The notes beneath the pieces are model-generated. The model searched no databases and was not told the DNA's origin. It worked only from the letters and a program-made list of their open reading frames with translations. From Bdellovibrionaceae bacterium UBA6502 (lineage in GTDB: Bacteria; Bdellovibrionota; Bdellovibrionia; Bdellovibrionales; UBA840), in NCBI GenBank assembly GCA_002436415.1, contig DJMA01000028.1, forward strand, positions 67,628-131,627: a DNA stretch of 64,000 nucleotides, written 5' to 3'. A program made the translations under genes and the position numbers. Positions 53,587-55,271 of the stretch are shown piece after piece; position 1 is the stretch's first letter; every line of letters begins with the position of its first letter.

Positions 53587-53979
53587 ATGAAGCTATCCTA
53601 TGTAATTTTATACGTGGAAGATGTAGTGAGATCTGTTGATTTCTATAAATCTGCATTTGGTCTTAAACACAAATTCACCCATGAATCTGGTGACTACGCT
53701 GAAATGGATACTGGAAGCACAAGTTTAGCCTTTTGCAAACACCAATTAGCAGAACAGATCATCAAAGGCACTTACCACAAAGCCTCACTAAAAGACAAAG
53801 CCCTAGGTAGTCAAATTAGTCTGGAACCTGAAGATGTAAAAACAGCCTACCAAACAGCAATTGAAAACGGAGCTTATTCAATTAGCCAGCCTGAAGTCAA
53901 AGAATGGAACTTTGAAGTGGCAATAGTTCGTGACTGCGACGGTCACATTATTGAACTAGCTAAAAACTTAAACCCATAA
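53587..53979 (+). CDS. VOC/glyoxalase-family protein
   Basis: 130 aa. MKLSYVILYVEDVVRSVDFYKSAFGL is the typical N-terminal beta-alpha-beta-beta-beta module. GGAG RBS. Confidence 0.75.
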   Translation: MKLSYVILYVEDVVRSVDFYKSAFGLKHKFTHESGDYAEMDTGSTSLAFCKHQLAEQIIKGTYHKASLKDKALGSQISLEPEDVKTAYQTAIENGAYSISQPEVKEWNFEVAIVRDCDGHIIELAKNLNP

Positions 53980-53994
53980 CCAAATTTAAAAGCT

Positions 53995-54425
53995 AGGTTC
54001 AAATCTGGCGGAAAAACTCAAACATTAAGATGGTCTTTGAAAGTCGTCAAAATTGGTTGCGGGAGCCAGCGGTGCTGAGAAAAGCATTATTTGCTTTTCG
54101 ATGACCGCAGTGAGCGGCCAAAAGCTTATTAAGCTTTTGGCGTCTAGCGAACCACAAACAGTAGGTTCAAATCTGGCGGAAAGAAAGAACGCAAAAAAAA
54201 GACCATCTAAAAAAGATGGCCTTTGAAAGTCGTCAAAATTGCTTGCGGGCGCCAGCGGTGCTGAGAAAAGCATTATTTGCTTTTCGACGACCGCAGTGAG
54301 CGGCCAAAAGCTTAACAAGCTTTTGGCGTCTAGCGAACCACAAACAGCAGGTTCAAATCTGGCGGAATGAAAGAACGCAAAAAAAAGACCATCTAAAAAA
54401 GATGGTCTTTGAAAGTCGTCAAAAT

Positions 54426-54439
<14 letters not shown>
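53995..54439. repeat. Tandem 186-bp repeat array: two full units, one truncated unit, and a third unit that merges into the 3' end of the tRNA-fMet gene
   Basis: ctttgaaagtcgtcaaaatt occurs at 54035, 54221 and 54407. aggttcaaatctggcgga occurs at 53995, 54163 and 54349. The two full units (54035-54220 and 54221-54406) differ by 8 substitutions and no indels in my manual alignment. The last 14 nt of the tRNA, including CCA, recur at 54054-54067 (exact) and 54240-54253 (2 substitutions). Confidence 0.9.
54387..54407 (-). terminator. Rho-independent terminator of tRNA-fMet (copies in each repeat unit)
   Basis: On the - strand: gaccatc-tttttta-gatggtc followed by T8. A second copy at 54201-54221 has one stem mismatch. 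The third copy (around 54026-54034) is degenerate. Confidence 0.8.
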
Positions 54440-54502
<63 letters not shown>

Positions 54503-54668
54503 AAAGCAAAGTATGAAATATTGGGCTCAGAGTCAAGGAAGTTACTATCTTTTTTTTGGCTGCTGTAAATACATGCGAAATTTGAAATTAGCTTACGATA
54601 ATCACTATCATACTTTGACCAAAGCAAGGAATCGTGGAAGATTGCAGTTGTTCAACAGGGAAAATTCA

Positions 54669-55271
54669 ATGGCAAAACTTTACTTTAGATACGGAACCGT
54701 CGGAAGCGCGAAAACTTTAAACCTTTTAGCTGTGGCACACAATTACCAACAACAAGGTAAAAAAGTTTTATTAATCAAACCAGCTTTAGATATCCGTTTT
54801 GGTAGAGCCCTTATTAAAAGTAGAGCTGGCTTAGCAAAAGAAGCCCATATGTTAATTGAAGAAGGCCAGCGAATTGTCCTACCCACTGAGCCTATAGACT
54901 GTATTTTAGTAGACGAAGCACAGTTTTTGAGTAGTGAGCAAATTGAAGACTTACAAAAAATTGCTAGTCTCGGTGGGATTCCTGTTATTTGCTACGGATT
55001 AAGAGCGGACTTTAAAAGCGAATGCTTCGAAGGTTCCAAAAGATTACTCGAGCTGTCCGATAGTATCGAAGAAGTAAAAACAACTTGTAACTTTTGTGAC
55101 CGAAAAGCAATTTTTAATCTCAAATTCATAGACAACAAAGCAACGAAAACAGGCCCTCAAGTAGATCTTGGAGCTGAGGAAAAATACCTCCCTGCCTGCA
55201 GCAAATGTTATCATGACTTTTTAGAATCAAATAAAGAGTTAAGCCCTAGTAAAACAGATTTAAGCTTATAG
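54669..55271 (+). CDS. tdk: Thymidine kinase
   Basis: MAKLYFRYGTVGSAKT P-loop, VDEAQFL, and a C-terminal Zn ribbon (CNFCDRKA ... CSKCYH). The track ORF start at 54402 runs through the tRNA gene and is rejected. Confidence 0.9.
   Translation: MAKLYFRYGTVGSAKTLNLLAVAHNYQQQGKKVLLIKPALDIRFGRALIKSRAGLAKEAHMLIEEGQRIVLPTEPIDCILVDEAQFLSSEQIEDLQKIASLGGIPVICYGLRADFKSECFEGSKRLLELSDSIEEVKTTCNFCDRKAIFNLKFIDNKATKTGPQVDLGAEEKYLPACSKCYHDFLESNKELSPSKTDLSL

What the first reader, a model, noticed from the sequence alone, without database searches (positions are those of the whole stretch)
54250..54364. Each repeat unit encodes a compact multi-helix fold; the substitutions between copies favour the + strand as the sense strand
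In unit B the non-tRNA segment folds on paper into nested helices with almost no unpaired linkers.
- H1: cgccag 54250-54255 pairs with ctggcg 54359-54364.
- H2: gctg 54260-54263 pairs with cagc 54345-54348.
- H3: 8-bp hairpin gaaaagca/tgcttttc, 54265-54285.
- H4: gacg 54286-54289 pairs with cgtc 54327-54330 and encloses two abutting hairpins.
- H5: ccgc/gcgg, 54291-54303.
- H6: 8-bp ccaaaagc/gcttttgg, 54304-54326, with a 7-nt loop.
H4, H5 and H6 together form a tight three-way junction.

Unit A (54064-54178) has the same fold. Of the 8 inter-copy substitutions, two fall in the H6 loop (ttattaa versus ttaacaa). Two fall in helices H2 and H4. On the + strand these two give G-U wobbles (gatg/cgtc and gctg/cagt). 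On the - strand they would give A-C mismatches. That argues weakly, from only two data points, for a + sense functional RNA. In contrast, the strong hairpin+T8 terminators are oriented for the - strand. The conflict is itself worth resolving.

The 7-nt H6 loop has a U at loop position 2 and a purine at loop position 6 on either strand, which is anticodon-loop-like, but it sits on an 8-bp stem.
Basis: inference. Interest (0 to 1): 0.65.

Follow-up and report, generated by a model that had tools for sequence, protein, structure and literature searches.

The report
Conserved hairpin module behind initiator tRNA
Just downstream of the initiator methionine tRNA gene of an uncultured marine predatory-type bacterium lies a 186-base tandem repeat whose hairpin-rich core is far better conserved than neutral DNA, so it is probably a new small structured RNA, but which strand is used and what it does remain unknown.

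Summary
Both strands fold much better than shuffles (z -5.3 and -4.7). The 115-nt core sits in a 186-bp tandem repeat (2.2 copies) abutting tRNA-Met(CAT) on the - strand. Each unit also carries the last 14-15 nt of the tRNA, its trailer and its - strand intrinsic terminator, plus an inverted copy of the tRNA T-arm.

The same locus occurs in marine Bdellovibrionota MAGs with 0, 1 or 2 units.

In a second species the core is 91% identical. By contrast, tdk four-fold sites differ at 53% and a neighbouring spacer is only 62% identical. Three base pairs (H6, H4 and a GAACC/GGUUC hairpin) changed compensatorily. A constrained structured element is therefore supported, though from only five sequences and one species pair.

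- **+ strand argument:** it does not hold. New substitutions give A.C on + and G.U on - at three pairs, against one or two the other way.
- **H6 loop:** it is a triloop on an 11-bp stem, not anticodon-like.
- **Homologues:** there is no Rfam match, no copy elsewhere, and none in phages or plasmids.

My best guess is a tRNA-strand, terminator-bounded read-through RNA. This is unproven.

The parts
53994..54014 (.). Copy 0 of the inverted T-arm-like motif (TAGGTTCAAATCTGGCGGAAA). It marks the left edge of the array, 14 nt after the glyoxalase stop codon.
   Evidence: D3 (3 exact copies, 0.01 expected).
54027..54067 (-). Leftmost S segment: the right half of the terminator hairpin only (the left arm and A-tract are deleted in this allele), the trailer, and a copy of the tRNA-Met 3' end (TTGGTTGCGGGAGCC).
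   Evidence: D2; comparison with the intact S0 in L001 and L007.
54064..54178 (.). Unit A core (hairpins H3, H5/H4, H6, the GAACC/GGUUC hairpin and closing stem H1).
   Evidence: model R1 hit at 171 bits.
54188..54224 (-). Intrinsic terminator of unit A's S segment (11-bp stem at 54198-54224, T-run).
54239..54253 (-). Degenerate copy of the tRNA-Met 3' end (TTGCTTGCGGGCGCC, 2 changes; the CCA reads GCA on the - strand).
   Evidence: D2.
54250..54364 (.). Unit B core, the stretch in the finding.
   Evidence: model R1 hit at 172 bits.
54265..54285 (.). H3 hairpin (GAAAAGCA/TGCTTTTC, 8 bp). Stems are invariant in 5 variants and only the loop varies.
54286..54330 (.). H4 (54286-89 with 54327-30) enclosing H5 (54291-94 with 54300-03) and H6 (54303-13 with 54317-27, 11 bp, triloop). 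H4 shows the series C-G / U.G / U-A. The third pair of H6 changes from C-G to A-U.
   Evidence: (I13).
54335..54354 (.). GAACC/GGUUC hairpin that uses part of the T-arm-like motif. The extension pair 54341-54347 changes from C-G to U-A in the second species.
54350..54363 (+). Inverted copy of the tRNA-Met T-arm (GGTTCAAATCTGGC; 13 of 14 to the tRNA here, 14 of 14 in L001 and L007).
   Evidence: I7 (0 of 500 shuffles as good).
54374..54410 (-). Intrinsic terminator directly downstream of tRNA-Met (stem 54384-54410, T-run).
54426..54502 (-). tRNA-Met(CAT), probably the initiator. Its last 14-15 nt are the right end of the repeat.
   Evidence: The initiator hallmarks (GGG/CCC in the anticodon stem, A11-U24) were read from the sequence and judged from general knowledge.

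Best explanation
The finding is the core of a clade-specific, selectively conserved, hairpin-rich non-coding module of about 115 nt. It is embedded in a 186-bp tandem repeat that arose by duplication of the 3' flank of the initiator-type tRNA-Met gene. Each repeat therefore also carries the last 14-15 nt of the tRNA, its trailer and its intrinsic terminator.

Most likely mechanism (inferred, not shown):
- The module is made as RNA from the tRNA strand (-) by polymerases that read through the tRNA terminator.
- Transcription ends at the next copy of that same terminator.
- This would give a structured RNA of about 190 nt whose level is coupled to tRNA-fMet transcription, working like a tRNA 3'-external-spacer RNA.
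- Its target or partner is unknown.

Copy number (0, 1 or 2 in public assemblies) changes by unequal recombination between the 91-bp S segments.

Shown: the repeat anatomy, the terminators, the cross-species constraint and the compensatory pairs. Inferred: transcription, strand and function.
For: Anatomy
- 186-nt period, 2.2 copies.
- The unit comprises the core, a - strand terminator, the trailer and the tRNA 3' end.
- The array abuts tRNA-Met on the - strand.

Constraint (window species versus L007 species)
- Core 91% identical, S 90%, tRNA 100%.
- tdk four-fold sites differ at 31 of 58; glyoxalase at 23 of 31.
- The rhodanese-glyoxalase spacer is 62% identical.
- The degenerate leftmost motif copy has decayed in L007, while the copy attached to a core has not.

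Structure
- Compensatory changes occur at H6, H4 and the GAACC hairpin.
- Seven of 10 between-species core substitutions fall in stems, and none breaks a pair on the - strand.
- In 100,000 random placements, P(at least 2 compensatory pairs) = 0.004 and P(no broken pair) = 0.0006.
- Fold z-scores are about -5.
- Unit GC is 0.48-0.51 in a genome of 0.36-0.40.

Strand
- Strong hairpin+T8 terminators occur only on the - strand.
- The terminator stem and T-run are kept in both S copies of L001 and L007, with species-specific loop changes.
- G.U rather than A.C occurs on the - strand at three pairs.

Recombination
- The single S of L002 is a left-S0/right-S1 chimera of the L001 allele.
- The L022 unit is an A/B mosaic.
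Against: - There is no expression data.
- No sigma-70-like promoter occurs in the array on either strand, and a strong terminator lies between the tRNA and the first unit, so - strand expression needs read-through.
- H4 has a C.A mismatch on the - strand in unit A and in the L001 unit.
- With flanks, the - strand ensemble is poorly defined (MFE frequency 0.002; centroid differs), whereas the + strand MFE equals its centroid.
- In the window allele the terminator that would end unit A on the - strand is half deleted.
- There are only 5 distinct unit sequences from 2 species. All three compensatory pairs come from one lineage, and the shuffle controls are not extreme (11-19 of 500).
- One assembly lacks the unit, so it may be dispensable.
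- Part of the structure tested was chosen with the L007 sequence in view.
Confidence: 0.4

Rival explanations
1. + strand RNA. The module would be part of the 3' UTR of the convergent VOC/glyoxalase mRNA (53587-53979, +), made by transcription that runs past the stop codon into the array.
For: - H4 passes through U.G on the + strand in unit A and the L001 unit.
- The + strand fold with flanks is lower in energy and better defined (-69.7 kcal/mol, z -5.3, MFE equals centroid) than the - strand fold.
- In the window allele the first terminator hairpin after the glyoxalase gene is half deleted, so + strand transcripts would enter unit A.
Against: - A.C mismatches occur on the + strand at H1 (L001, L007), at the last pair of GCGGU/ACCGC (L001, L007) and at the GAACC hairpin extension (3 of 5 variants).
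- H2 is broken in L007.
- On the + strand the terminator hairpin is followed by only TTTG, and no + strand terminator or promoter is called.
- Two of 7 between-species stem substitutions break pairs on the + strand, versus none on the - strand.
Confidence: 0.25
2. A DNA-level element or by-product with no discrete RNA function. It would be a minisatellite of the tRNA 3' flank whose hairpins act as extra terminators or an insulator between the convergent tRNA and glyoxalase genes, or as paired palindromic protein-binding sites (AAAAGC-N7-GCTTTT, twice, 40 bp apart).
For: - Copy number is 0, 1 or 2 among assemblies.
- Each unit adds a terminator.
- H3 and H6 share the same 6-bp half-site.
- No promoter is found.
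- Both strands fold equally well because the hairpins are palindromes.
Against: - The compensatory change in H4, whose partners are 40 nt apart and not part of a palindrome, fits single-strand folding rather than a dimer-binding site.
- Unpaired linkers (GCTGAG, AGTGAG, TCTAGCG) are also invariant.
- 91% conservation is far above neutral DNA.
- The hairpins inside the core are not followed by T-runs.
Confidence: 0.2
3. A scar of site-specific integration at the tRNA gene. The units would be what is left of one or two small integrative elements, each flanked by a copy of the tRNA 3' end (attL/attR).
For: - There are direct repeats of the tRNA 3' 14-15 nt.
- A T-arm-derived sequence, the usual crossover region of tRNA-targeting integrases (general knowledge), lies at the other end of each unit.
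- Presence or absence differs between strains.
Against: - No integrase or any conserved ORF lies between the repeats.
- The repeat extends 77 nt beyond the tRNA and includes its trailer and terminator.
- The T-arm copy is inverted.
- There is no match in phage, plasmid or viral collections.
- The core is under constraint and sits at the same locus in two to three species.
Confidence: 0.1
4. A tRNA-like RNA: a cloverleaf-shaped four-way junction with an anticodon-like H6 loop and a T-loop.
For: The + strand MFE is a four-way junction. A genuine T-loop sequence is present.
Against: - The tRNA covariance model finds nothing in the units even at E up to 10, and ARAGORN finds nothing.
- The core has no similarity to the tRNA body.
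- H6 is an 11-bp stem with a triloop.
- Covariation favours GAACC/GGUUC pairing, which consumes the T-loop.
- The CCA of the copied 3' end is mutated in unit B and in L001.
Confidence: 0.03

Closest known systems
tRNA 3' external transcribed spacer RNAs (3'ETS-leuZ of E. coli, an sRNA sponge; reviewed in PMC8166272 and named in papers listed)
   Same: Non-coding sequence immediately downstream of a tRNA gene on the tRNA strand, ending in an intrinsic terminator. Its expression would be tied to the tRNA promoter.
   Different: Here a strong terminator separates the tRNA from the module. The module is tandemly repeated and carries a copy of the tRNA 3' end. Neither co-transcription nor any pairing partner has been shown.
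Tandemly duplicated sRNA genes, each with its own terminator (for example LhrC1-5 of Listeria, PrrF1/2 of Pseudomonas; from general knowledge)
   Same: Near-identical structured units repeated head to tail, each ending in a terminator. Copy number differs between strains.
   Different: No promoter is recognisable in the unit. The unit boundaries derive from a tRNA gene flank.
Partial tRNA 3'-end duplications at integration sites of prophages and genomic islands (an sRNA next to such an attR duplication is described in PMC3861185)
   Same: Direct repeats of the last 14-15 nt of a tRNA gene, and presence or absence among strains.
   Different: There is no integrase or cargo. The repeat includes the trailer and terminator. 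The intervening 95-115 nt are conserved and structured.
REP/BIME palindromic units and MITEs
   Same: Intergenic palindromic hairpins in tandem, polymorphic in number, at the 3' ends of convergent genes.
   Different: It is confined to a single locus. There is no other copy in 64 kb or in any fetched locus, and there are no terminal inverted repeats or target-site duplication.

Membership tests
tRNA / tRNA-like (Rfam RF00005, clan CL00001) | Match to the tRNA covariance model or a cloverleaf found by ARAGORN | tested here: not met
   cmscan at E up to 10 over 53900-54600 hits only the real tRNA. ARAGORN finds one gene only.
tRNA / tRNA-like (Rfam RF00005, clan CL00001) | 5-bp anticodon stem with a 7-nt loop | tested here: not met
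   H6 is an 11-bp perfect stem with a 3-nt loop, and only the 3 central bases vary.
tRNA / tRNA-like (Rfam RF00005, clan CL00001) | T-arm that forms as a hairpin with a GTTCRANYC loop | tested here: inconclusive
   The sequence is present. However, its stem has an A.G mismatch, and covariation supports the competing GAACC/GGUUC hairpin.
Any described RNA family (Rfam 15) | Score at or above a family's gathering threshold | tested here: not met
   Only tRNA passes. The best other hits reach 14-25 bits against thresholds of 41-100.
Independent sRNA gene | Intrinsic terminator at the 3' end | tested here: met
   Two - strand terminators, each an 11-bp stem plus T-run, one per unit.
Independent sRNA gene | Own promoter | tested here: not met
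   No sigma-70-like site in 53994-54425 on either strand. Manual inspection found only weak -10 candidates.
Independent sRNA gene | Stable transcript | not testable with these tools
   No transcriptome data are available for these uncultured MAGs.
tRNA 3'ETS-derived RNA | Lies downstream of the last tRNA on the same strand | tested here: met
   if the - strand is the sense strand.
tRNA 3'ETS-derived RNA | Lies within the tRNA transcription unit (no terminator in between) | tested here: not met
   A strong terminator at 54384-54410 lies between the tRNA and unit B.
Integrative-element att scar | Direct repeat of the tRNA 3' end | tested here: met
   Three copies of TTG[G/C]TTGCGGG[A/C]GCC (D2).
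Integrative-element att scar | Integrase or element genes between the repeats, or similarity to mobile elements | tested here: not met
   No conserved ORF. No match in phages, plasmids or viral contigs.
REP/BIME/MITE | Many dispersed copies in the genome | tested here: not met
   No further copy in the 64-kb window or in 20 sources searched with model R1. The rest of the genome could not be searched.
Neutral minisatellite (VNTR) | Head-to-tail copies with variable number | tested here: met
   Caveat: short-read assemblies may collapse the repeat.
Neutral minisatellite (VNTR) | Evolves at a neutral rate | tested here: not met
   The core is 91% identical, against 62% for a neighbouring spacer and 47% at tdk four-fold sites.

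The most novel reading that the evidence does not exclude
The module could be a regulator or parasite of the initiator tRNA itself. On the - strand each unit carries a 14-nt sequence that is perfectly antisense to the tRNA-fMet T-arm in L001 and L007. On the + strand each unit carries 15 nt antisense to the tRNA 3' end including CCA. An RNA from either strand could therefore pair with the precursor or unfolded initiator tRNA and tune its maturation or abundance. Alternatively, the module could be a minimal self-duplicating element that targets this tRNA flank.
Probability: 0.07. Interest if true: 0.75.

Novelty: new member of a known kind. Interest (0 to 1): 0.4.

Why it matters
If it is expressed, this would be a new structured RNA family, absent from Rfam and confined to a poorly known group of uncultured marine Bdellovibrionota. 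It would be physically and probably transcriptionally tied to the initiator tRNA gene. It would also show how duplication of a tRNA flank can give a new RNA a ready-made terminator.

Practical points:
- The repeat breaks short-read assemblies at this locus.
- Gene callers have been misled into extending the thymidine kinase ORF across the tRNA gene.

The evidence rests on five sequences and no expression data, so for now this is a candidate worth a metatranscriptome check rather than a discovery.

Tried and rejected
- **Rfam:** gathering thresholds on the whole window and E up to 10 on 53900-54600 returned only the tRNA.
- **Homologue hunting by DNA pattern:**
  - CCGCAGTGAGCGGCCAAAAGC in genome contigs: 0 hits.
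  - GACCGCAGTGAGCGGCNNAAAGC in metagenome contigs: 0 hits.
  - The same pattern in viral contigs: 0 hits.
  - GCTGAGAAAAGCAT-N5-TGCTTTTCGA in viral contigs: 0 hits.
  - The double-hairpin pattern AAAAGC-N7-GCTTTT-N15-27-AAAAGC-N7-GCTTTT gave 17 metagenome loci (L027-L043), all unrelated repeats on inspection, and 0 viral hits.
- **blastn of the unit** against phages and plasmids: no match.
- **Synteny walking from tdk homologues**: the next relatives (77% identity or less) lack the tRNA and unit.
- **Synteny walking from glyoxalase homologues**: only one further species (L045) shares the locus, and its contig stops in the repeat.
- **Decayed tRNA with hairpin insertions:** rejected. There is no similarity of the core to the tRNA body or to the tRNA upstream region beyond chance.
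- **Small protein:** rejected. The + strand ORFs lack ATG, and their stops and frames differ between variants.
- **Dispersed REP-like element:** rejected for the sequence available.
- **Replication terminus or skew switch:** none.
- **Recent recombination tract as the cause of conservation:** unlikely. The spacer next to tdk and the left flank are divergent while the core is not, and the substitutions respect the structure. It is not excluded.

Full report
**What is in the sequence**

The stretch 54250-54364 is the core of the second copy of a 186-nt tandem repeat. The repeat spans 54027-54439 with 2.2 copies and 95% matches. It ends inside a tRNA-Met(CAT) gene on the - strand at 54426-54502.

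Read on the + strand, each unit has two parts.
- A hairpin-rich core of about 115 nt.
- A 91-nt segment I call S. S holds, in order:
  - AGGTTCAAATCTGGCGG plus a purine-rich spacer;
  - a hairpin with an 11-bp stem that, on the - strand, is followed by a T-run (a terminator-like site);
  - a 26-nt trailer;
  - TTGGTTGCGGGAGCC, the reverse complement of the last 14-15 nt of the tRNA including CCA.

GGTTCAAATCTGGC is an inverted copy of the T-arm of the same tRNA (I5-I7; 0 of 500 shuffles score as well). A third, partial copy of S lies at the left edge (53994-54067). In this allele its terminator has lost its left arm.

The array sits between a VOC/glyoxalase gene on the + strand (53587-53979) and thymidine kinase (54669-55271).

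**Check of the observation**

- The units differ at 8 of 186 positions, 5 of them in the core.
- The two H6-loop changes and the two wobble-giving changes are as described.
- Folding is far better than for shuffled sequence on both strands. Unit B gives -49.3 kcal/mol (z -5.3) on + and -46.0 (z -4.7) on -. Both strands fold well because most of the energy comes from perfect palindromes.

- They pair GCGGU (54255-59) with ACCGC (54290-94) instead of forming H5 and H4.
- They form a GAACC/GGUUC hairpin (54335-39 with 54350-54) instead of H2.
- H6 is an 11-bp stem with a 3-nt loop (I13). Only the three central bases vary among variants, so the anticodon-loop resemblance falls.

**Relatives**

Exact-protein look-ups placed the locus in marine Bdellovibrionota / Pseudobdellovibrionaceae MAGs and Tara Oceans assemblies.
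- Within the window's species, assemblies carry 2 units (L017, identical to the window).
- Others carry 1 unit (L001, L003, L005 and L022).
- L002 carries 0 units.
- The single S of L002 is a chimera of the left and right S of the L001 allele. The L022 unit is a mosaic of units A and B. This is what unequal recombination between S copies would give.

Many contigs end in the repeat, so assembly collapse could mimic some of these counts.

A second species (L007 = L019) has tdk 95% and glyoxalase 65% identical in protein. It has one unit at the same place. A third species (L045, glyoxalase 74%) has the left edge of the array before its contig stops, and it keeps more of the core's 3' end there.

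Nothing similar was found elsewhere.
- Two genome-collection scans, two metagenome scans and three viral scans were negative.
- Phage and plasmid BLAST found no match.
- Rfam returned only the tRNA.
- A covariance model built from the five variants found only the known units in the window and 19 loci.

**Evidence of constraint**

Between the window species and the L007 species:

| Region | Result |
|---|---|
| tdk four-fold degenerate sites | differ at 31 of 58 |
| glyoxalase four-fold sites | differ at 23 of 31 |
| rhodanese-glyoxalase spacer | 62% identical |
| unit core | 91% identical (10 differences in 115) |
| S | 90% identical |
| tRNA-tdk spacer | 86% identical |
| tRNA | 100% identical |

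The conserved block is not a uniform recombination tract. The spacer next to tdk and the left flank are divergent.

Seven of the ten core differences lie in stems.
- Four of them form two compensatory doubles: the H6 third pair (C-G to A-U), and the extension of the GAACC hairpin (C-G to U-A).
- One turns the U.G of H4 into U-A, completing the series C-G / U.G / U-A.
- The other two give G.U on the - strand.

With ten substitutions placed at random, at least two compensatory doubles occurred in 0.4% of 100,000 trials, and no broken pair in 0.06%. There is one caveat: part of the structure was chosen with these sequences in view.

The stems of H3 and H5 never vary. The shuffle controls of the pair counts are only moderately unusual (11-19 of 500), as expected with five sequences and one diverged lineage.

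The unit is also a GC island (0.48-0.51 against 0.36-0.40). I conclude that a folded, selectively maintained element is likely, but it is not yet proven by R-scape-grade statistics.

**Which strand**

With the new variants the score is mixed.
- The + strand is favoured at H4 (U.G versus C.A in unit A and L001) and at H2 in unit A.
- The - strand is favoured at H1 (L001, L007), at the last pair of GCGGU/ACCGC (L001, L007), at H2 in L007 and at the GAACC hairpin extension (three variants).
- For the covariation-supported fold, the figures are 95.8% and 97.4%.
- With flanks, the + strand fold is somewhat lower in energy and better defined.
- The only terminators point to the - strand.
- No promoter-like site lies in the array on either strand.

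The strand is unresolved. I lean to the - strand for three reasons. Every unit ends there in a conserved copy of the tRNA terminator. The module is conserved as a block with the tRNA, its terminator and its promoter. And no between-species substitution breaks a - strand pair.

**Most likely mechanism and rivals**

- **Best guess (0.4):** the module is transcribed from the tRNA strand by read-through of the tRNA terminator and ends at the next terminator copy. This would give a structured RNA of about 190 nt coupled to initiator-tRNA transcription. It would work like a 3'-external-spacer RNA, though it fails the membership feature 'no terminator in between'.
- **+ strand 3'-UTR element of the glyoxalase mRNA (0.25).**
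- **DNA-level repeat:** extra terminators or paired AAAAGC-N7-GCTTTT sites with no discrete RNA (0.2).
- **Scar of a tRNA-targeting integrative element (0.1).**
- **tRNA-like RNA (0.03):** tested and not met.

**Comparison with the known, and novelty**

It is not a member of any Rfam family.
- It resembles tRNA-flank-derived and tandemly duplicated sRNAs in layout.
- It resembles att scars in carrying the tRNA 3' end.
- It resembles BIMEs in being tandem palindromes.
- It fails at least one defining feature of each of these.

I file it as a new member of a known kind: a lineage-specific candidate structured sRNA. The notable feature is that its unit boundaries, 3' end and terminator were copied from the initiator tRNA gene. 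Interest is moderate (0.4). The constraint signal is real, but the sample is tiny, the organism is uncultured and nothing is known of its expression.

Noticed in passing
window 54402-55271 (+): Several public assemblies call thymidine kinase as a 289-aa or 232-aa protein (P0001, P0122, P0123, P0125). The extension starts at an ATG inside the terminator hairpin and reads across the tRNA-Met gene. The real start is 54669 (a 200-aa protein, as in NCBI MAF92682.1).
   Followed up: partly
L004, L006, L018, L023-L026, L045; L017 2417-2715: Public contigs very often end in or next to the 186-nt repeat, and one scaffold has an N gap inside the tRNA. The repeat breaks short-read assemblies, so the copy numbers 0/1/2 could partly reflect assembly collapse.
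   Followed up: partly
L026 697-837: In this 837-nt contig the unit is followed by the truncated-terminator flank (GGCGGAAAAACTCAAACATT) that normally lies to the left of the unit. This is either a loop in the assembly graph or a further arrangement of the array.
   Followed up: no
window 54426-54502 (-): The tRNA-Met has initiator hallmarks (three G-C pairs at the base of the anticodon stem, A11-U24). However, it has a U1-A72 pair instead of the usual bacterial C1xA72 mismatch. This was judged from the sequence and general knowledge only.
   Followed up: no
window 54669-54728 (+) versus L007 1590-1649: The first 60 nt of tdk are 98% identical between the two species, with 1 of 20 third-position changes against 6-12 of 20 in the rest of the gene. 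The 24 nt just upstream of the ATG are divergent. This is an unexplained patch of synonymous conservation.
   Followed up: partly
window 54266-54284 and 54306-54324 (also 54080-54098, 54120-54138): H3 and H6 share the same core, AAAAGC-N7-GCTTTT, 40 nt apart. This suggests an internal duplication or a common binding partner. No other exact copy of the motif occurs in the 64-kb window.
   Followed up: partly
window 54503-54595 (-): The 90 nt upstream of the tRNA are about 96% identical between species. They contain TTGACT-17 nt-TACTTT just before the tRNA 5' end, a likely tRNA promoter.
   Followed up: no
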